44,209 nt of DNA from a virus, in UHGV virus genome UHGV-0377591. One strand, given 5' to 3'. Both the position numbers and the translations under genes were made by a program. A model generated the notes under the pieces. The model was given only the letters and a program-made list of their open reading frames with translations. It did not search any database and had not been told where the DNA came from. Below, one piece after another: positions 14,191-37,916 of this stretch. The number at the start of each line of letters is the position of its first letter. Within the stretch, counting starts at the first letter, position 1.

Positions 14191-15591
14191 TTAACCGTCC
14201 ACATTAAAGTCGATACGAGTGATGTATTTACTACCCCACGCCGAATCCGCTTGGGGTATGGAGGCATAACCGTCAACAGACGGAACGTTTACCACAGAGT
14301 CGTCGGAATATGTAATGTCGATGCTTGTTGCTCCGCTCATTACTACTTTTGCCGAGGCTGTAGGGCGTGTAATTAAATTTTCTTCGGTTTTAATATACGA
14401 CGATGAATTAGTAGATTTCTCCATTTGGGCACCAAAAACTGATATAGCACTAACACCATCACTTGGGAAAGACGTGTTGTTAGCAGCGTCAGAGGCCCAC
14501 ACAGACGCGTTTATACTTGTCGGGGAGGAATTAGTAATAACTCGCACCCATACTCTAAACCAGCCATCACCTACTGCTATTATACCGCATCTTGAATAGT
14601 CCTTAGCTGATGTTATCACCCCCGTAGATAGGTCTACATAAACAGGATTACTTGCCACCTGACTAGCAAATACTCCGATCTGAACAAGAGCATTATTGTA
14701 CCCATTTGCTTTCACAAAAACAGAATAGGTGTATGCCGTAGATGCTTCCGGGGTTATCAATTGTAAAACGTTATGAGTACCAGTGGTTGTTGTTGGGACT
14801 AGTTTGGATGCGCCCGTTCCGCCGGTAGGGTCTTGCGTTCCACCGTAGGTAACAGTAGTCCTTGTTTTCGCCCATACGGGATCCGATAAGTCCTCTGACA
14901 TTTTTAGTAGGTTTAGACCACCAACCTCCGGCGGCACACGCCCAACGGCAACACTATCAATAAATGTTAGAGGCCATTCATTAGTGGCTGATTGCACAAG
15001 ATTGCCGTTGCGGTTGATGTAATAAACCTGCGGCCCGTCGTACACAATGCGGCTATCCAGGGCGGACGCCAGAAGGTTAATCGGCGGGTATCCTGCGGGC
15101 CCTTCATCGCTCCAGATGCGCGGGAACGTAGTCTCATAGTTCGCGTATATTTTCAGGAAACTACCCAGACAATCCCCGTAGCAACCATACAAATCTGGCA
15201 GATTCTTAGTAAGACATGTGTCTTCCTGAATTGCTGTGCGCTCTGCTGTAGCCGTAAACGTAATGACCCAGTTCTTGCCGTCGTCTGTGCTATCGCTAAT
15301 ATCAGACGTAATAAGAACCTGGTGGTCTTCGATACCTAAACCGGTATCATGAGGCATGATGAACGAAGATGCCCCGCCGTCTATGTTATTCAGGAAGCTA
15401 TAGAAAGCCTGACGGCCTAGTGACGATACGACCAGGGTAACGCTAATAGGTACCGGTTCGAAGTATGTATCACGTCCCTGTCGAGGCACGCCACCTTGCA
15501 CTTCTGTACGCCAGATATTACTCCCTCGCGTTTGGGAGTACCCCTTCGACACTATTGGTCGAAGGGACATAGGGAATCTCAAATCACTCAT
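14191..15591 (-). CDS. Minor/distal tail protein (M-like by position) with a Thr/Ser-rich C-terminal extension
   Basis: ORF track; immediately downstream of the tape measure gene. Confidence 0.5.
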   Translation of the reverse strand: MSDLRFPMSLRPIVSKGYSQTRGSNIWRTEVQGGVPRQGRDTYFEPVPISVTLVVSSLGRQAFYSFLNNIDGGASSFIMPHDTGLGIEDHQVLITSDISDSTDDGKNWVITFTATAERTAIQEDTCLTKNLPDLYGCYGDCLGSFLKIYANYETTFPRIWSDEGPAGYPPINLLASALDSRIVYDGPQVYYINRNGNLVQSATNEWPLTFIDSVAVGRVPPEVGGLNLLKMSEDLSDPVWAKTRTTVTYGGTQDPTGGTGASKLVPTTTTGTHNVLQLITPEASTAYTYSVFVKANGYNNALVQIGVFASQVASNPVYVDLSTGVITSAKDYSRCGIIAVGDGWFRVWVRVITNSSPTSINASVWASDAANNTSFPSDGVSAISVFGAQMEKSTNSSSYIKTEENLITRPTASAKVVMSGATSIDITYSDDSVVNVPSVDGYASIPQADSAWGSKYITRIDFNVDG

Positions 15592-15594
15592 TGG

Positions 15595-17931
15595 TTAATA
15601 CCCCGGCTGGTTTCGTGTAGCCCGGCGGGACTTGGAGATTGCACTGTTGCTGTCTTGTAACGCCGCCGATACTGTTTCGCTGATGATAACACGTAACCGC
15701 CCTTCGTCGTCACGCTCTGTAACGGCGGAATCAACTCGTCCGGTGGTGTTGTTGACGATTGTCACGCTGTCACCGCCTGACTTGTTGCCGTTCTCGCCCA
15801 TAATCTGGCGCATCTGTTCCGCGGTACGTACGCGTGACGCCCCCGCAGGCATAATAACTTCCGGCTTGTTACGTTCTGCAATGGTGGATAGCTGCCCGGC
15901 AGCTAAGTTACCACCCTGCTCACGGGCCGAACGAATCTTGCTGATGTTAGCGAGACCTGCCGCTACCGCTGTAGCTGCTGCTATCGGCCCAAGTATCCAA
16001 CCAACAAAAGGAATCGCGGACGCAGATTTATAAGCCTCGATGGCGGATGTGTATGTGGCGATGGTGGCCTGGGCGATAGCAAACGCTTTATAAGCGGTAG
16101 ACGCTTCGCCAAGCGACGATTTAATATTATCCGCCATCATGCCGAAAGCGTTACCTGTAGCGTTGGCGCGTTTTAACGCGTACTGGTCGTTTATAGCATT
16201 AACCGCAGCCTGGTACTGTTCCTCGTTAATAAGATTCTGTTCACGGTATCGGTCCGCAACGTCCAGTTTTTGTTGTTCCTGAATTTCCAGAAGCTCAAGC
16301 TCGGTGGCATTCTGACCCATAATCTGAGCCATGAAGTCTTCGCCTTTCTGGTTCTTCTCCTGTCGTTCTTTCTCCCGCTTGGCGAGTTCTTCCTGGCGAG
16401 CGGTGTCCGCCTCCAACATAATCTGAGTTTTAGCGTTCTCGTATTGCTGGTCGCTAAGAAGCTGATTGCCGTAAAACTCCTGTAGCTTGGTTAGCTGCTG
16501 TTCCTGGTTGGCTTCTATTTTCTGGAATACGTCATCATTGAGATGAATCGACTGGTAGTAGAAATCCTCAGCGGCTTTCTTCTGGCGCTCGAACGCATCC
16601 GCAGCTTTCTTGGCGGCTTTTGCACTAGCGTTATCATCTTCTGACCCGCCACCGGCACCAGTTACCTTAAACTTACTAAGCCCTTCTTCCTTAGCGGCTT
16701 CTTTGTCGATGTCATATGCCGCGCGTTTAAGCGCGACGATATTTTGCTGAGCCTCCACCTGTTCGCGGAAACTTTTACGGGTCAGGTCCGCAACATCGCG
16801 CTGAGTATCCAGTGCCATCCCTAACTGGAAGTTAATGTTTTTTGCTACGTCTACAGATTCCCCTGGTGTGAAGGCAGCTTTCACCAACCGGCCAGCGTCC
16901 TGTGCCCCTTTAACCATATCTTCAAAGAATCGCTCCATCGCGGTAAATTCTTCCGCTATGAAATCGAGCGCATCGGCAGCTGATTCCGCGATGGTTGTCG
17001 CCGTTTGTTCGCCACTGTCGGTGATACTTTTACTGCTAAAATCCCAAAGTTCATTCAGCCCGTTTATTGCGTCGCCTACGAAACCAAATGCCGCGTCGAA
17101 CGACATCTCTATCGCGCTGCCCACTTCTGACGCGATGTCACCCCACATACGCATCTCAGCGGTGAGTTCGCCGGATGCTACCTGTGCGTTAAGTTCCTGG
17201 ATTAAATCATCGATGTACCGGATAGGTTCCGCAAGAGCACCAACATCAAGGCTGGTGGCCAGTGTCATTTTTAACTGCGACCATGAGTCGCTGGCACTGG
17301 CGATGGCCCCGTTAAGTGTGTTGGCCTGGTCCGCCATAGCCCCCGCGAAGTTTACGTTACCAATGTTGAGCAGGTATTGCTCGATGTCGGCAGCGCTCTT
17401 CTTAACTACCGTAGTGGTGCCCTGGAATGTAAATTCAACATCGTTTTTGTTCTGCTTGGCCTTGATACCAAATTCTTTAAGGCGCTCAAATTCAAATGTA
17501 CTAGCGTCCGCAACGGCCTCAATCATCTGATTAAGGTCTTTACCCATAGCAGCGGCAGTGTTGCCATAGGAGCGCAACGCTTCTTCTGAGGGGGTAAGGC
17601 CGAGAGCCACCAGTTTACGGAATCCCTCTACCGCCTGTTCAAGGCCATACGGAGTGTCGCGCGCGAAGTCTTGCAGGATGCTTAACGCCTGTCTTGCCCC
17701 CTGCGTGCTTCCGGTTAGCGTTTTCAGGCTGGCGGACATCTTGTCCAGTTGCCGTTGGGAGTCTACCAGTTCCTGTGCGGCCTTGTACGCTGTCGCGGCG
17801 ATAATTGAAGCGAGTCCAGCTACGGCTGCCCCCGCTACTTTTGCCGACTTGGAGAGATTATCAAGACGGTCCGATGTAGCTTTCGCGCCTTGCTCTGATA
17901 CCTTTACAACTAAACTAGCTACATCAGCCAT
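15595..17931 (-). CDS. Tail tape measure protein, 778 aa
   Basis: Long, Ala/Gln/Glu-rich, helical, low-complexity protein after the chaperone genes; Gly-rich hydrophobic segment near the C-terminus. Confidence 0.85.
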   Translation of the reverse strand: MADVASLVVKVSEQGAKATSDRLDNLSKSAKVAGAAVAGLASIIAATAYKAAQELVDSQRQLDKMSASLKTLTGSTQGARQALSILQDFARDTPYGLEQAVEGFRKLVALGLTPSEEALRSYGNTAAAMGKDLNQMIEAVADASTFEFERLKEFGIKAKQNKNDVEFTFQGTTTVVKKSAADIEQYLLNIGNVNFAGAMADQANTLNGAIASASDSWSQLKMTLATSLDVGALAEPIRYIDDLIQELNAQVASGELTAEMRMWGDIASEVGSAIEMSFDAAFGFVGDAINGLNELWDFSSKSITDSGEQTATTIAESAADALDFIAEEFTAMERFFEDMVKGAQDAGRLVKAAFTPGESVDVAKNINFQLGMALDTQRDVADLTRKSFREQVEAQQNIVALKRAAYDIDKEAAKEEGLSKFKVTGAGGGSEDDNASAKAAKKAADAFERQKKAAEDFYYQSIHLNDDVFQKIEANQEQQLTKLQEFYGNQLLSDQQYENAKTQIMLEADTARQEELAKREKERQEKNQKGEDFMAQIMGQNATELELLEIQEQQKLDVADRYREQNLINEEQYQAAVNAINDQYALKRANATGNAFGMMADNIKSSLGEASTAYKAFAIAQATIATYTSAIEAYKSASAIPFVGWILGPIAAATAVAAGLANISKIRSAREQGGNLAAGQLSTIAERNKPEVIMPAGASRVRTAEQMRQIMGENGNKSGGDSVTIVNNTTGRVDSAVTERDDEGRLRVIISETVSAALQDSNSAISKSRRATRNQPGY

Positions 17932-18288: not shown

Positions 18289-18705
18289 CTACTTTTCCTG
18301 CAATTGGTGAAGCTGTTCATTGTGGAAAACAACAACGTGTTCAGCGAGTCGTTTATATTGTGAGAAAAGAGTATTCAGGTTCTCTTTATTAAATTCATCG
18401 TCGAGACTCCAACCGTTAACCAGTTCAAGCGCTAACTGGCGGTTAAGGTCCGTTGCGGCGTCTTCCATCTTGATGTTGTATTCCGAGAAATCTTTCAGTT
18501 CCTCGCATTTATCGCGAAGCGGTTTCAATTTACCTAATGCCGCGCGGTACGCAAGTGTAAACGCCCTCATAGCTTTAACAGCAACGTCTGCCTCCGGTGA
18601 AACAACGTTCAGCCACTCCCCTGAATCGGTGCCGTCTTTCAGTGGTATCGGCATACGGGCGCCTTTTTCTGCCTCAGCTTCGTAATAAAAATCAGAAAGT
18701 TTCAT
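18289..18705 (-). CDS. Tail assembly chaperone (G-like)
   Basis: ORF track; immediately upstream of the tape measure gene; ribosome-binding site AAAGGA. Confidence 0.65.
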   Translation of the reverse strand: MKLSDFYYEAEAEKGARMPIPLKDGTDSGEWLNVVSPEADVAVKAMRAFTLAYRAALGKLKPLRDKCEELKDFSEYNIKMEDAATDLNRQLALELVNGWSLDDEFNKENLNTLFSQYKRLAEHVVVFHNEQLHQLQEK

Positions 18706-18813
18706 TCTTTAATCCTTTGGTTAAGAGGTTACAGGTTAATGGTAAATGCGCCAGACGGGAACCACCCGCTTTTCGTGTGCGACACTAGGCGCAAAATTAT
18801 TCTATCACATTAC

Positions 18814-18842
18814 TTGCGCACCCCAACATAATAGGATACTAT
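18814..18842 (+). promoter_or_regulatory. Class II promoter with operator palindrome overlapping the -10
   Basis: TTGCGC (18814-18819), 17-bp spacer, TACTAT (18837-18842); AATAG-GATA-CTATT at 18830-18843. Confidence 0.5.
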
Positions 18843-18883
18843 TCACTTACACCAACAATGTTAACTCAAACAGGATCTACACC

Positions 18884-19075
18884 ATGACAGGTATTACTAT
18901 GTTCTTCTTAATCATTATCGTTTTAGTTTATTTTATCCCATTTCTCGTGGCGCATATGCGCAACCATAAAGCTAAATTAGCGATATTCATGGCTAATCTG
19001 TTTCTCGGTTGGGTTCTGCTGCCGTGGGTATTTATTTTAATCTGGGCGTGCAACTCGAATGTCAAAGAGAAGTGA
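18884..19075 (+). CDS. Small two-transmembrane protein, 63 aa (candidate superinfection-immunity or holin-like)
   Basis: MTGITMFFLIIIVLVYFIPFLVAHMRNHKAKLAIFMANLFLGWVLLPWVFILIWACN; AGGA ribosome-binding site; first gene of the rightward insert. Confidence 0.55.
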   Translation: MTGITMFFLIIIVLVYFIPFLVAHMRNHKAKLAIFMANLFLGWVLLPWVFILIWACNSNVKEK

Positions 19076-19114
19076 GCTAGTATAGGACAAATCCTAAACA
19101 CGAGGAAGTAAAGC

Positions 19115-20245
19115 ATGGCTCATAAGAAAATAACCGACGAACAGTTACGGGAAGAATTGAACGCCGGAACAAAAATTATTGATATCGCACGTAAGTATGG
19201 AATCTCAGACCGCGTTATCCGTATCCGTAAAGCGAAGCTGGCTAAGAAAGGTGTAGGCCACGGTCGCGACGTTAGTCACCTTGTGCCTGACGGCTACAAG
19301 ATTAAAGGTACGTCGTCTCTGGTGGACGAGTTCGGCAACACTAAACTGCAATGGGTTAAGACCGACACTGACGCAGAACGTCAGGTCGAGTTGATGAAAG
19401 CTGTAATCGAGGGCATGAAGTCAGAGATTACGCCGATTGCGCCTGTTAAAGCCGTTCGCGCCAAACGTGACGATAAACTACTTAATCTTTACACTGTATC
19501 TGATTTCCATCTCGGTATGCTGGCCTGGGCCGACGAGAGCGGCGACGACTGGGACATGAAGATTGCAGAAGACCTGTTCTCCCGATGGTTCGATGCGGCG
19601 TTTCAGAAAGCACCAGATGCAGGAACTGGGGTTATTAACCTGCTGGGTGACTTCGCGCACTTCGATAGTCTGGATGCGGTTACGCCAGCGAGTGGTCATG
19701 TTCTTGATGCGGACACTCGTTATCAGAAACTGGTCCGCTACATGATTCGTATGGTACGCCGTGTTGTCGGTATGGCGCTGGTTAAGCATAAAAATGTTCG
19801 CTTGCTTATCGTGCAAGGGAATCACGACGAAAGTGGCATGATTTGGTTAGCTGAGATGTTTAGTACGCTGTACGACAATGAGCCGCGTGTGTTCGTAGAT
19901 ACGTCGCCGGATGTTTACAAGATGGTTCAACACGGCAAAACGACGCTGTTCTTTACACACGGCCATAAATGCAGGTTTGAGGTGGTCGAACCGATTATGA
20001 TTGCCAAGTTCCGCAAAGCGTTCGGCGAGAGCGTTTACAGCTACGCCCACGTAGGCCACCTGCACCATCAGAAGATTGTAGAAAGCCGTAACATGATTGT
20101 TGAGCAACACCGCACCTTAGCGGCTAAAGACGCCTACGCCTCGCGCGGCGGATGGATGTCGGGCCGTAGTGCAAATGTAATTACTTATAGCGCCGAATAT
20201 GGCGAGGTCGCACGTTTAACTATTTCACCGGAGATGCTGGGATGA
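19115..20245 (+). CDS. Calcineurin-like (Mre11/SbcD-type) metallophosphoesterase with N-terminal HTH-like domain, 376 aa
   Basis: Motifs VSDFHLG, LLGDFAHFD, VQGNHDE, FTHGHK, HVGHLHH; N-terminal TKIIDIARKYGISDRVIRIRK. Confidence 0.75.
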   Translation: MAHKKITDEQLREELNAGTKIIDIARKYGISDRVIRIRKAKLAKKGVGHGRDVSHLVPDGYKIKGTSSLVDEFGNTKLQWVKTDTDAERQVELMKAVIEGMKSEITPIAPVKAVRAKRDDKLLNLYTVSDFHLGMLAWADESGDDWDMKIAEDLFSRWFDAAFQKAPDAGTGVINLLGDFAHFDSLDAVTPASGHVLDADTRYQKLVRYMIRMVRRVVGMALVKHKNVRLLIVQGNHDESGMIWLAEMFSTLYDNEPRVFVDTSPDVYKMVQHGKTTLFFTHGHKCRFEVVEPIMIAKFRKAFGESVYSYAHVGHLHHQKIVESRNMIVEQHRTLAAKDAYASRGGWMSGRSANVITYSAEYGEVARLTISPEMLG

Positions 20246-20730
20246 AAGATATTGTGATTTTCGATTTAGACGGGACATTGGCGGACGGTACTCATCGTTT
20301 ACACCTGCTACCGAAAGATAACTACAACGAAACATGGGCGTGGAAGCCATTTAACATGGCGTGCAAAGATGATTCGCCGATATATGACAACATCCACTTG
20401 TGCAACACGCTGTGACATACCGGGATGACCATAATCATCCTTACCGGGCGAAGCGACGACGCCGAGGAAGAAACTCGTGAGTGGTTACGTAAAAACAATG
20501 TCAAGTTCGACGTTCTGTTAATGCGCAGCAAGCACGACAACAGAAAAGACATCGTAATTAAAGAAGAGGTGTTACGTGCTATCGGGCTGGAGAGAATATT
20601 GTGTGCGTTCGACGACTCTCCAGCGGTAATAAAGCATTTCCGCGGACTCGGTATAACCACTCACGCGGTTACTGAATACGACTGTAACGGGAACTCTACA
20701 CACTTAAAATCACACGGGAGCGATAAATAA
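20242..20730 (+). pseudogene. HAD-superfamily phosphatase (polynucleotide 3'-phosphatase-like) interrupted by an in-frame TGA at 20413-20415
   Basis: Motif I VIFDLDGTLA lies before the stop; motifs ILTGRSDD, HDNRKD and AFDDS lie after it in the same frame. By recollection resembles the phosphatase domain of T4 polynucleotide kinase. Confidence 0.6.
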
Positions 20731-21284
20731 TGGCTAAGGTAATTATTCTTAATGGCCCTGCGGGCTGCGGGAAAGACACACTTGCTATGGCGCTGGTAGA
20801 AATGGGCTTTGCGAAAGGAACTACCAGTTTCAAGAATCCAATGTTCAATATCGCTCTGGCGGCGTTAGGCCCGGATGCTTACCACGAGTTTCTCGACGGC
20901 TACGACGACCGGGCGCGGAAAGAAAAGCCAGAAGGCTTCCTTAATGGCTTGTCGCGGCGTCAGTTCATGATTGCTATATCTGAGCAATTCATTAAACCGG
21001 TACTTGGTAGTGATTATTTCGGTAAGTATCTTGCTGGAAACTTGCCAGACGGCGACGAAGTTTTTGTAGTGTCCGATGGCGGGTTCGCCAGCGAAGTAGC
21101 CCCTATCGTCGCCGCGGGTCATGATGTAAGAATCGTCCGCTTGCACCGAGAAGGCTATACGTTTGAGGGGGACAGCCGTGGTTATCTGTATGGCGTTGAT
21201 GGTGTAAAAGATTGCGACACCTACATCATACCGGGGGACATTAAATCGAACGTTATAGACATTGCTTTAAAATTAGGTTTGTAA
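20730..21284 (+). CDS. P-loop kinase (dNMP kinase-like or polynucleotide 5'-kinase-like), 184 aa
   Basis: Walker A ILNGPAGCGKDT; ATGA-type overlap with the HAD gene stop. Confidence 0.65.
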   Translation: MAKVIILNGPAGCGKDTLAMALVEMGFAKGTTSFKNPMFNIALAALGPDAYHEFLDGYDDRARKEKPEGFLNGLSRRQFMIAISEQFIKPVLGSDYFGKYLAGNLPDGDEVFVVSDGGFASEVAPIVAAGHDVRIVRLHREGYTFEGDSRGYLYGVDGVKDCDTYIIPGDIKSNVIDIALKLGL

Positions 21285-36867: not shown

Positions 36868-37365
36868 TTAACCTTTCACCGCTCGCCCGATAGCCTCCGC
36901 CTCCTGCCACGGCTTACCATCGAACAGCGCCAGACGACCAGCGGTACGGCGCCGGAGACCAAGCAGTTTCCTGCCTTTCTGGTAGACAAACTGACCCATA
37001 ATCCGACGGCACTCCGCTACATTTCCCAGGCGCACCGCGTCATCGAAGTCGGCTAGCTGGTTATCTTTCTCTATAACCCCTGTACCCACGTTGAAACAAA
37101 GGTCACAAATTGCGTCGAACTGCGCTTGATTGAATATCGGGTGCACTAATTCGTCGGCTTTCCTGACGGCCCTAGCCATATCGCGATTAAGTAGCAGGAG
37201 GCCTTGTCCGGGAGTGATGGTCTTGCCCGGTGTTACGTCCGGTCCGTAGTGGCCGTAGCCTATCGTCAGGTACTTCTCGTTTGACGTAGCACGATACGCA
37301 GTTCCGCGGAATCCCTCGAACGCGGCGGTGAAATGCAGTCCATTATCTGAAATGTTTCGAGACAC
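36868..37365 (-). CDS. Endolysin, GH24 (T4-lysozyme-type) muramidase
   Basis: Start moved to GTG 37365 (GGAGGA upstream). Catalytic signature FEGFRGTAYRATSNEKYLTIGYGH. Confidence 0.8.
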   Translation of the reverse strand: MSRNISDNGLHFTAAFEGFRGTAYRATSNEKYLTIGYGHYGPDVTPGKTITPGQGLLLLNRDMARAVRKADELVHPIFNQAQFDAICDLCFNVGTGVIEKDNQLADFDDAVRLGNVAECRRIMGQFVYQKGRKLLGLRRRTAGRLALFDGKPWQEAEAIGRAVKG

Positions 37366-37615
37366 GCTTATGTCCTCCGTATGACAGCCACGCCTGTCGA
37401 ATCTGACGCAGCGCAACTAATGTGATTAACGTCTCTGGCAGCGTTGGTGACATGCTGCCCTGTAACAGGTGGATACATCCGGCGGCGCAGACGATAGCAG
37501 TCAGGATATAGAGCACCCGGCCGAACAGCCCGTCGTCAACGCTGGGGTGATACACATTAAACAGCGATGTACCCCCGATTGCCAGCATACCGCCGAACCA
37601 GAATAACTCATTCAT
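37343..37615 (-). CDS. Two-transmembrane lysis-cassette protein (antiholin or second holin)
   Basis: Start moved to ATG 37615 (ATGA overlap with the holin stop); transmembrane segments LFWFGGMLAIGGTSLF and VLYILTAIVCAAGCIHLL. Confidence 0.45.
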   Translation of the reverse strand: MNELFWFGGMLAIGGTSLFNVYHPSVDDGLFGRVLYILTAIVCAAGCIHLLQGSMSPTLPETLITLVALRQIRQAWLSYGGHKRVSKHFR

Positions 37616-37916
37616 CCGGGCCCCCTCGACGTGCGATGTATTCTCCGGCAACGATACCGGAGAGACGGGAATAAATAGGCATCCAGAGAACGGCGATGAT
37701 AAAGCCCAGGCCAGCTATCTCGCGCTCCCCGGTAATACCGAACCATTGGGCTGCGAGAGGTGCACCAAATACGGCGCAGGTGAAGCCAGTTACGATAAAG
37801 AAGAAGCCGTCGATAGGGCCGGAAATAACGGACTTATGTTGTCGTAGTCCGATGACCCCTCCGGCGAGTGCGGCAGCCAGAAGCCAGCCTGTCACTGTTT
37901 CAGTAAATTTATCCAA
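37608..37916 (-). CDS. Holin (three predicted transmembrane segments)
   Basis: Hydrophobic segments WLLAAALAGGVIGL, FFFIVTGFTCAVFGAPLAA and LGFIIAVLWMPIY; first gene of the lysis cassette. Confidence 0.6.
   Translation of the reverse strand: MDKFTETVTGWLLAAALAGGVIGLRQHKSVISGPIDGFFFIVTGFTCAVFGAPLAAQWFGITGEREIAGLGFIIAVLWMPIYSRLSGIVAGEYIARRGGPDE

What the first reader, a model, noticed from the sequence alone, without database searches (positions are those of the whole stretch)
18884..19075. Small two-transmembrane protein leading the rightward insert
The 63-aa product (MTGITMFFLIIIVLVYFIPFLVAHMRNHKAKLAIFMANLFLGWVLLPWVFILIWACN) has two hydrophobic helices separated by a short basic loop. It is expressed from a class II promoter away from the holin/endolysin cassette. 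That topology fits a superinfection-immunity/exclusion protein or an accessory holin-like protein.
Basis: inference. Interest (0 to 1): 0.4.

Follow-up and report, generated by a model that had tools for sequence, protein, structure and literature searches.

The report
T4 Imm-like superinfection immunity gene
This small membrane protein gene of a Kagunavirus (an E. coli siphophage) is an ordinary relative of the phage T4 Imm protein, which stops a second phage from delivering its DNA, and it already carries that name in closely related genomes.

Summary
The ORF at 18884-19075 (+) is real. It encodes 63 aa, has an AGGA ribosome-binding site, and shows dN/dS of about 0.03 against relatives. It has two hydrophobic helices joined by a basic loop.

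It matches Pfam PF14373 (Imm_superinfect) over the whole profile at 51.8 bits (cut-off 27.9). It also matches PHROG 1039, and phage T4 Imm directly (BLASTP E 9e-12). The two T4 Imm residues whose mutation weakens exclusion, R33 and W50, are conserved here as R26 and W43.

The window is a Kagunavirus (Guernseyvirinae).

The holin alternative is not supported. The lysis cassette (endolysin plus two holins) lies 17.8 kb away, and the protein hits no holin family.

"Class II promoter" is unsupported, because no ORF large enough for a T7-type single-subunit phage RNA polymerase is one, and the annotated relative lists none. A conserved sigma-70-like promoter (TTGCGC, 17 nt, TACTAT) sits upstream instead.

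The exclusion function is inferred by homology and is untested in this phage group. The family is very large and also occurs in bacterial chromosomes.

Side observations:
- An int-alpA-like RNA motif lies on the opposite strand just upstream.
- The neighbouring polynucleotide kinase gene carries an in-frame stop.

The parts
18884..19075 (+). imm-like CDS, 63 aa plus stop; superinfection immunity protein family PF14373
   Evidence: ORF. Pfam 51.8 bits against cut-off 27.9, profile 1-42 of 42. PHROG 1039 E 2.5e-23. dN/dS about 0.03. Single copy in the window.
18872..18875 (+). Shine-Dalgarno AGGA, 8 nt before the ATG
   Evidence: Sequence. A purine-rich block sits at the same place in relatives.
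18814..18842 (+). Predicted sigma-70-type promoter of imm: -35 TTGCGC (18814-18819), 17-nt spacer, -10 TACTAT (18837-18842)
   Evidence: The same spacing with TTGCAC/TACTAT (L013) and TTGCAT/TATTAT (L028) is found in the other clades. This is a consensus match only and has not been shown to function. The tool's own scan gave a nearby alternative, ATCACA-17-CATAAT at 18804-18832.
18893..18952 (+). Hydrophobic helix 1 (aa 4-23). The N-terminal part is variable between alleles; Y16-F17-x-P19 and A23 are family-invariant.
   Evidence: Hydropathy; AF2 helix 3-25; family column statistics.
18953..18976 (+). Short basic loop (aa 24-31, HMRNHKAK). It contains R26, which aligns with T4 Imm R33, and H28.
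   Evidence: R26 is invariant in the diverse alignment A3. T4 R33A lowers exclusion (bioRxiv 10.64898/2026.03.06.709160).
18977..19051 (+). Hydrophobic helix 2 (aa 32-56), with the family motif N38-L-F-L-G42-W43 ... W48 ... W54-A-C56. W43 aligns with T4 Imm W50.
   Evidence: T4 W50A lowers exclusion. This clade departs from the family at G47P and T44V.
19115..21284 (+). Rest of the rightward cassette, probably co-transcribed with imm: metallophosphoesterase/DNA repair exonuclease (19115-20245), polynucleotide kinase-phosphatase (20242-20730, interrupted by TGA), dNMP kinase (20730-21284)
   Evidence: Co-transcription is an inference from the short gaps and shared strand.
15595..17931 (-). Tape measure protein, the candidate target of the Imm-like protein by analogy with T4 only. 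A hydrophobic segment lies at about aa 638-662.
   Evidence: PF20155 at 35.5 bits, below its 41-bit cut-off; annotated TMP (phrog_1538) in PQ417132. Hydrophobic peak. The C-terminal roughly 190 aa are conserved across Kagunavirus and Jerseyvirus loci. There is no sequence similarity to T4 gp29. The interaction is not shown.

Best explanation
The gene encodes an inner-membrane helical-hairpin protein of the Imm_superinfect family (PF14373). It is a homologue of phage T4 Imm.

Proposed working:
- It is made from a host-RNA-polymerase promoter at the head of the rightward DNA-metabolism cassette and inserts into the cytoplasmic membrane of the infected cell.
- There it prevents a later-arriving phage of the same or a similar kind from passing its genome across the inner membrane, so the superinfecting DNA stays outside the cytoplasm.
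- By analogy with T4, where Imm binds the tape measure protein and blocks its channel-forming step, the likely target is the membrane-inserting C-terminal module of the incoming phage's tape measure protein.

Shown here: the gene is real and under strong constraint, it belongs to the family, the functionally tested T4 residues are conserved, and it lies outside the lysis module.

Inferred: membrane location and topology, the exclusion phenotype, the target and the timing of expression.
For: - Family match: PF14373 at 51.8 bits (cut-off 27.9) covering profile positions 1-42 of 42 at aa 15-56. T4 Imm scores 58.2 bits with the same profile at aa 22-63. BLASTP of the window protein against T4 Imm gives E 9e-12, 28% identity and 56% positives over 54 aa without gaps.
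- PHROG 1039 'immunity to superinfection', E 2.5e-23. This is the PHROG that contains T4 Imm according to PMC9409062.
- T4 Imm binds the TMP gp29, and R33A and W50A reduce exclusion (bioRxiv 10.64898/2026.03.06.709160). These positions are R26 and W43 here. They are 97% and 98% conserved among 152 family members, and R26 is invariant in alignment A3.
- Strong purifying selection, strongest in the conserved core: 14 synonymous against 0-1 non-synonymous changes in codons 26-63.
- Two-helix model with pLDDT 80.8 and hydropathy.
- The window TMP has a hydrophobic segment and a C-terminal module conserved across the subfamily.
- Close relatives annotate the gene the same way.
- A Kagunavirus transcriptome lists the homologue among its expressed phage genes (PMC12645636).
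Against: - No experiment on any Guernseyvirinae Imm was found.
- The family is very large: 9038 cluster representatives at E<=1e-3. It is present in chromosomes of many bacterial phyla. A Yersinia copy sits among epimerase and ABC-transporter genes rather than phage genes. Family membership alone therefore does not prove an exclusion role.
- The window TMP has no detectable similarity to T4 gp29 (E 0.56), so the T4 target cannot simply be transferred.
- One relative (L027) keeps a nearly identical Imm with a very different TMP C-terminus. Imm alleles are only loosely linked to TMP alleles.
- The K1B4 transcriptome puts the homologue in its latest expression class, unlike early T4 imm. That class also holds DNA polymerase, so its meaning is unclear.
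- The clade has P at the position where 93% of the family has G (G47).
Confidence: 0.68

Rival explanations
1. It is a true PF14373 family member, but its job here is not exclusion of superinfecting phage. The domain would be a general small inner-membrane module, for example modulating a host membrane protein or transport during takeover. The 'immunity' name would then be an over-extension from T4.
For: - Huge family: 9038 representatives.
- Found in at least 505 bacterial species genomes with one motif pattern, across many phyla.
- The Yersinia copy lies in a non-phage neighbourhood that is syntenic in two species, with a 90-aa C-terminal extension.
- Family members range from 58 to 332 aa, with the domain at either end.
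- Only T4 Imm has experimental support in the papers found.
- The gene heads a DNA-metabolism cassette rather than a defence locus.
Against: - Residues needed for T4 exclusion are conserved.
- The protein is little more than the conserved domain, so it has no other functional module.
- Chromosomal copies could equally be host-encoded blocks to phage DNA entry.
Confidence: 0.22
2. It is an accessory holin, antiholin or lysis-timing protein, as the first reader proposed as an alternative.
For: Small size and two hydrophobic helices resemble class II holins. Two Met codons at residues 1 and 6 look superficially like a dual start.
Against: - No holin family in Pfam at E<=1 or in PHROGs at E<=0.01.
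- The phage has two holin genes (PHROG 2508 and 2359) next to its endolysin at 36868-37916, 17.8 kb away. The relative PQ417132 also annotates spanin genes elsewhere in the genome.
- Met6 is absent from the other two alleles, and no charged residue lies between the two Mets.
- Strong specific homology to Imm.
Confidence: 0.04
3. It is a chance ORF in an AT-rich intergenic or promoter region and not a gene.
For: Short ORF; GC is 38.5% against 50.4% for the window.
Against: - Pfam E 7.7e-14.
- Conserved reading frame, start and stop in 36 loci.
- dN/dS about 0.03 with saturated synonymous sites.
- Ribosome-binding site present.
Confidence: 0.01

Closest known systems
Phage T4 Imm (immunity to superinfection; UniProt P08986; Pfam PF14373)
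   Same: - Same Pfam domain in the same register and direct BLASTP similarity.
- Same hydrophobic helix, basic loop, hydrophobic helix layout.
- Equivalents of T4 R33 and W50 are conserved.
- Encoded by a virulent phage, outside the lysis genes.
   Different: - 63 aa against 83 aa: a shorter N-terminus and no roughly 20-aa hydrophilic C-terminal tail.
- 28% identity only.
- The host phage is a siphovirus whose TMP is unrelated in sequence to T4 gp29.
- The gene heads a cassette inserted among tail genes, not the T4 gene 42-43 region.
- H28 and G42 are kept here but are S and N in T4, and this clade has P47 where T4 and most of the family have G.
- Function is untested here.
Imm-like genes of other Guernseyvirinae (for example vB_VIPECOTH07_00055, Golestan, K1G, Salmonella phage SETP7 and SeF1 Gp_027)
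   Same: Orthologues at the same position between the tail assembly chaperone and the exonuclease. Identity is 67-100%. They are already annotated as superinfection immunity proteins.
   Different: They differ only in allele. The window carries the 'MTGITMFF...' N-terminal helix, while many Kagunaviruses carry 'MSSLPVSL...' and Jerseyviruses carry a 59-aa form.
HK97 gp15 (superinfection exclusion moron acting through the tape measure protein)
   Same: It works like the proposed mechanism: a small inner-membrane protein of a siphophage that blocks genome entry and interacts with the TMP (cited in bioRxiv 10.64898/2026.03.06.709160). From my own memory, not checked here, gene 15 also lies inside the tail gene cluster next to the TMP gene.
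   Different: No sequence comparison was run here, so this is an analogy and not a family assignment. HK97 is temperate, and gp15 is expressed from the prophage.
Class II (two-transmembrane) holins
   Same: Size and two hydrophobic helices.
   Different: No family match, no linkage to the endolysin, and no conserved dual start.

Membership tests
Pfam PF14373 Imm_superinfect / PHROG 1039 | Score at or above the curated gathering cut-off, over the full domain | tested here: met
   51.8 bits against 27.9, profile 1-42 of 42. PHROG 1039 E 2.5e-23.
Pfam PF14373 Imm_superinfect / PHROG 1039 | Family signature residues (Y-F-x-P ... A-x-x-R-x-H ... I-F-x-x-N-L-x-L-G-W ... W ... W-A-C) | tested here: met
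   Y16, F17, P19, A23, R26, H28, I34, N38, G42, W43, W48 and W54 are all present. The exceptions are G47P and T44V.
T4 Imm-type superinfection exclusion protein (functional class) | Detectable homology to T4 Imm itself | tested here: met
   BLASTP E 9e-12 over 54 aa. T4 Imm matches the same Pfam model.
T4 Imm-type superinfection exclusion protein (functional class) | Residues required for exclusion in T4 (R33, W50) conserved | tested here: met
   They align to R26 and W43. The mutational data come from bioRxiv 10.64898/2026.03.06.709160.
T4 Imm-type superinfection exclusion protein (functional class) | Small integral inner-membrane protein with hydrophobic helices | tested here: met
   Hydropathy peaks of 2.5-3.2 and 1.7-2.5. 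AF2 gives two helices. Location and topology in the cell are not testable here.
T4 Imm-type superinfection exclusion protein (functional class) | Expressed early in infection from a host-polymerase promoter | tested here: inconclusive
   A conserved sigma-70-like promoter is predicted. The K1B4 transcriptome places the homologue in its latest class, together with DNA polymerase.
T4 Imm-type superinfection exclusion protein (functional class) | Blocks genome entry of a superinfecting phage (exclusion phenotype) | not testable with these tools
   Needs plating and DNA-entry assays. No published test for Guernseyvirinae was found.
T4 Imm-type superinfection exclusion protein (functional class) | Binds the tape measure protein of the excluded phage | not testable with these tools
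   The window TMP shows no similarity to gp29. It does have a conserved hydrophobic C-terminal module. No complex prediction tool was available.
Holins (class II) | Match to a holin family | tested here: not met
   None in Pfam at E<=1 or in PHROGs at E<=0.01.
Holins (class II) | Gene adjacent to the endolysin in a lysis cassette | tested here: not met
   The endolysin and two holins lie at 36868-37916 (-), 17.8 kb away.
Known anti-phage defence systems (PADLOC-DB 2.0) | Match to any catalogued defence protein model | tested here: not met
   No family at E<=1.

The most novel reading that the evidence does not exclude
[quoted passage not shown] In this reading it is not specific to T-even myoviruses but is general to the PF14373 fold.
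- In Guernseyvirinae the 63-aa protein would bind the conserved hydrophobic C-terminal module of a TMP that is unrelated in sequence to gp29 and is encoded about 1 kb away. That would make a linked immunity-target pair, like colicin immunity genes.
- The thousands of chromosomal homologues in bacteria would then be an uncatalogued family of host-encoded blocks to phage genome entry. They are absent from PADLOC.

Nothing here excludes this reading, and nothing here tests it.
Probability: 0.25. Interest if true: 0.5.

Novelty: already known. Interest (0 to 1): 0.15.

Why it matters
For annotation, the matter is settled: this is the standard Imm-like gene of Guernseyvirinae.

It has some practical relevance, because Kagunaviruses and Jerseyviruses are used in phage cocktails. 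A working exclusion protein would limit co-infection by related cocktail members.

It would also give a compact 63-aa siphovirus counterpart for testing whether the newly reported T4 Imm-TMP mechanism is general.

Tried and rejected
- Extended 109-aa ORF from ATG 18746: rejected. The upstream in-frame part is not conserved and is interrupted by stops in relatives.
- Holin reading: rejected.
- 'Class II promoter': rejected. No ORF large enough for a T7-type phage RNA polymerase is one, and the annotated relative lists none.
- PADLOC, NCBIfam, PDB sequence search and BFVD fold search gave nothing for the protein.
- The word-indexed protein search found only 10 close relatives. The exhaustive profile search was needed to see the family.
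- A diverse alignment (A3) was too variable for the genome scan, so a narrower one (A4) was used.
- Similarity between the window TMP and T4 gp29: none.
- Co-variation of Imm alleles with TMP alleles: only loose linkage, with exceptions L009, L015 and L027. This gives no support for co-evolution.
- Names for distant family members: mostly unnamed metagenomic proteins.
- DNA search of 5,426 complete E. coli genomes for the gene: no match.
- Low GC of the gene as a sign of foreign origin: not pursued. It is explained as well by hydrophobic codons and the adjacent AT-rich promoter.

Full report
**What is there**

The + strand carries an ATG ORF at 18884-19075. It encodes 63 aa: MTGITMFFLIIIVLVYFIPFLVAHMRNHKAKLAIFMANLFLGWVLLPWVFILIWACNSNVKEK.

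AGGA at 18872-18875 lies 8 nt before the ATG. Hydropathy shows two hydrophobic stretches, at about aa 4-23 and 32-56, around the basic loop HMRNHKAK. An AlphaFold2 model built on ten relatives gives two helices, 3-25 and 29-60, with mean pLDDT 80.8.

A longer in-frame ORF starting at 18746 is not conserved. Relatives have stops in that stretch.

**It is a real gene**

The ORF is kept with the same start and stop in 36 IMG/VR loci, and tblastn finds it in 371 GenBank phage records.

- Against L010 there are 22.7 synonymous and 5.3 non-synonymous differences, giving dN/dS 0.03.
- In codons 26-63 there are 14 synonymous changes and 0-1 non-synonymous changes.
- A profile scan of all six frames finds only this one copy in the window.

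**What the window is**

The region 18300-20800 is 91.8% identical to Escherichia phage vB_VIPECOTH07 (Kagunavirus, Guernseyvirinae). It matches 238 phage records, mostly Escherichia and Salmonella siphophages.

In that annotated relative the gene order is as follows:
- tape measure protein (-)
- two tail assembly chaperone ORFs (-)
- superinfection immunity protein (+)
- DNA repair exonuclease (+)
- polynucleotide kinase (+)
- dNMP kinase (+)
- tail genes (-)

The window has the same order. The ORF therefore does lead a 2.4-kb rightward cassette set inside the leftward structural genes.

The lysis cassette is at 36868-37916 (-). It holds an endolysin and two holins, PHROG 2508 and 2359, and lies 17.8 kb away.

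The relative has no RNA polymerase gene. All window ORFs of 700 aa or more are a DNA polymerase, tail proteins or the tape measure protein. 'Class II promoter', a T7 term, therefore has no basis here.

**Promoter**

The 178-nt intergenic region was aligned across three clades. One sigma-70-like arrangement keeps its position in all of them:
- TTGCGC, 17 nt, TACTAT in the window (18814-18842)
- TTGCAC, 17 nt, TACTAT in L013
- TTGCAT, 17 nt, TATTAT in the Jerseyvirus-like L028

The tool's own scan gave a neighbouring alternative at 18804-18832. These are consensus matches and have not been shown to function.

**Family**

- Pfam PF14373 Imm_superinfect: 51.8 bits against a 27.9 cut-off, aa 15-56 matching profile 1-42 of 42.
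- PHROG 1039 'immunity to superinfection': E 2.5e-23.
- T4 Imm, read from NC_000866, scores 58.2 bits on the same model at aa 22-63.
- T4 Imm aligns with the window protein at E 9e-12, with 28% identity and 56% positives over 54 aa and no gaps.

No holin family appears in either library. PADLOC, NCBIfam, the PDB sequence set and BFVD give nothing.

**Mechanism known for the family founder**

A 2026 preprint (bioRxiv 10.64898/2026.03.06.709160) reports three things about T4 Imm:
- It co-purifies with a fragment of the T4 tape measure protein gp29.
- It sits against the helical-bundle domain of gp29 in a cryo-EM map.
- It loses activity with R33A and W50A.

The authors propose that Imm blocks the TMP's channel-forming step. 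They compare this with colicin immunity proteins and with HK97 gp15.

In the BLASTP alignment, T4 R33 and W50 correspond to R26 and W43 of the window protein. Among 152 aligned family members these positions are R in 97% and W in 98%. In a diverse 36-sequence alignment that includes T4 Imm, R26, I34 and W54 are invariant.

This clade departs from the family at two points. It has P47 where 93% of the family has G, and V44 where 81% has T.

**Transfer of the mechanism**

The window TMP is 778 aa, encoded at 15595-17931 (-). It has a hydrophobic segment near aa 638-662. Its C-terminal roughly 190 aa are conserved in nearly all Kagunavirus and Jerseyvirus loci, although the central part exists as unrelated alleles.

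It has no detectable similarity to T4 gp29 (E 0.56). Imm N-terminal alleles are only loosely linked to TMP alleles; L009 and L015 are exceptions. L027 combines a nearly identical Imm with a very different TMP C-terminus.

TMP binding is thus a reasonable analogy and not a finding.

**Caveats on function**

- The exhaustive profile search finds 9038 cluster representatives at E<=1e-3 and 407 at E<=1e-10. They are 58-332 aa long, with the domain at either end.
- One motif pattern found relatives in at least 505 species genomes over many phyla.
- In two Yersinia species a 146-aa member sits in the same neighbourhood of epimerase, DUF3828 and ABC-transporter genes, not among phage genes.
- No copy is found at DNA level in 5,426 complete E. 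coli genomes.
- The only experimental data found are for T4.
- Papers on Kagunavirus and Jerseyvirus genomes name the gene by homology only.
- A K1B4 transcriptome lists the homologue in its latest class, together with DNA polymerase. That does not match the early expression of T4 imm, but the classes in that study are coarse.

**Verdict**

The first interpretation (superinfection immunity) is supported by homology and is already the standard annotation. The holin alternative is not supported. The finding is ordinary and already known, so its interest is low.

**Side observations**

- The conserved block just upstream on the opposite strand matches Rfam RF02996 (int-alpA RNA). The window copy scores 32.5 bits at E 7e-5, just under the 35.8 cut-off. 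The copy in L010 scores 36.6 bits and passes.
- On 14 distinct copies, 95% of cells pair in the proposed three-helix structure, against 32-60% when the partners are slid. Three pairs change on both sides, and the G-U intermediates fit only the minus strand. There are few independent events, because only two or three clades contribute.
- A conserved leftward promoter-like site (TTGGTG, 16 nt, TATTAT at 18855-18828; TTGACG, 17 nt, TATTAA in L028) overlaps the imm promoter.
- The kinase gene has TGA where relatives have TGG.

Noticed in passing
window 18731-18795, minus strand: A block more conserved than the flanking coding DNA matches Rfam RF02996 (int-alpA RNA) over the full model. The window copy scores 32.5 bits at E 7e-5, just below the 35.8 cut-off. 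The copy in relative L010 (3847-3911) scores 36.6 and passes. The three-helix structure is 95% paired on 14 distinct copies, with three pairs changed on both sides and G-U wobbles that fit only the minus strand. It lies in the likely 5' leader of the tail chaperone and tape measure operon. Its function is unknown. I did not see it mentioned for these phages, though I ran no search targeted at that.
   Followed up: partly
window 18814-18855: Two conserved divergent sigma-70-like promoters overlap. The rightward one is TTGCGC-17-TACTAT (18814-18842), for imm. The leftward one is TTGGTG-16-TATTAT (18855-18828; TTGACG-17-TATTAA in the Jerseyvirus-like L028). Their -10 boxes are 3 bp apart, and each -35 lies in the other's transcribed region, so the two may compete for polymerase. 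A second leftward candidate, TTGGGG-16-TAGAAT, ends just before the int-alpA-like element. All are consensus matches only.
   Followed up: partly
window 20413-20415: The polynucleotide kinase/phosphatase gene (20242-20730) is interrupted by an in-frame TGA where relatives have TGG (Trp58: LCNTLWHTG against LCNTL*HTG). This leaves 57-aa and 101-aa ORFs in the same frame. It is either a real nonsense mutation or a sequencing error.
   Followed up: yes
window 18884-18958 compared with L013-L027: The imm gene is mosaic. Kagunaviruses carry two unrelated N-terminal helix alleles (MTGITMFFLIII... and MSSLPVSLILFA...) joined to an almost identical core. Against L013, codons 1-25 have dS 2.5 and dN 0.55, while codons 26-63 have dS 0.24 and dN 0. 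This points to a recombination junction near codon 25.
   Followed up: partly
window 15595-17931 (-) and relatives: The tape measure protein is strongly mosaic among relatives. At least three unrelated alleles occupy the N-terminal and central part (10-30% identity), joined to a conserved C-terminal module. L027 has a further, divergent C-terminal region with insertions.
   Followed up: partly
L071 4980-5420 and L100 4962-5402 (Yersinia chromosomes): A 146-aa PF14373 protein (64 bits) with a long C-terminal extension sits in the same non-phage neighbourhood in two Yersinia species, among NAD-dependent epimerases, DUF3828 and an ABC transporter. The 'superinfection immunity' domain is thus also a resident chromosomal gene.
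   Followed up: partly
window 14191-15591 (-): Directly downstream of the tape measure gene the window has a 466-aa ORF. At this position the relative PQ417132 has a 166-aa virion protein and a + strand HNH endonuclease gene. The difference was not examined.
   Followed up: no
window 18800-19100: GC falls to 35-39% over the promoter region and imm, against 50.4% for the whole window. This may reflect hydrophobic codons and the AT-rich promoter rather than foreign origin.
   Followed up: no
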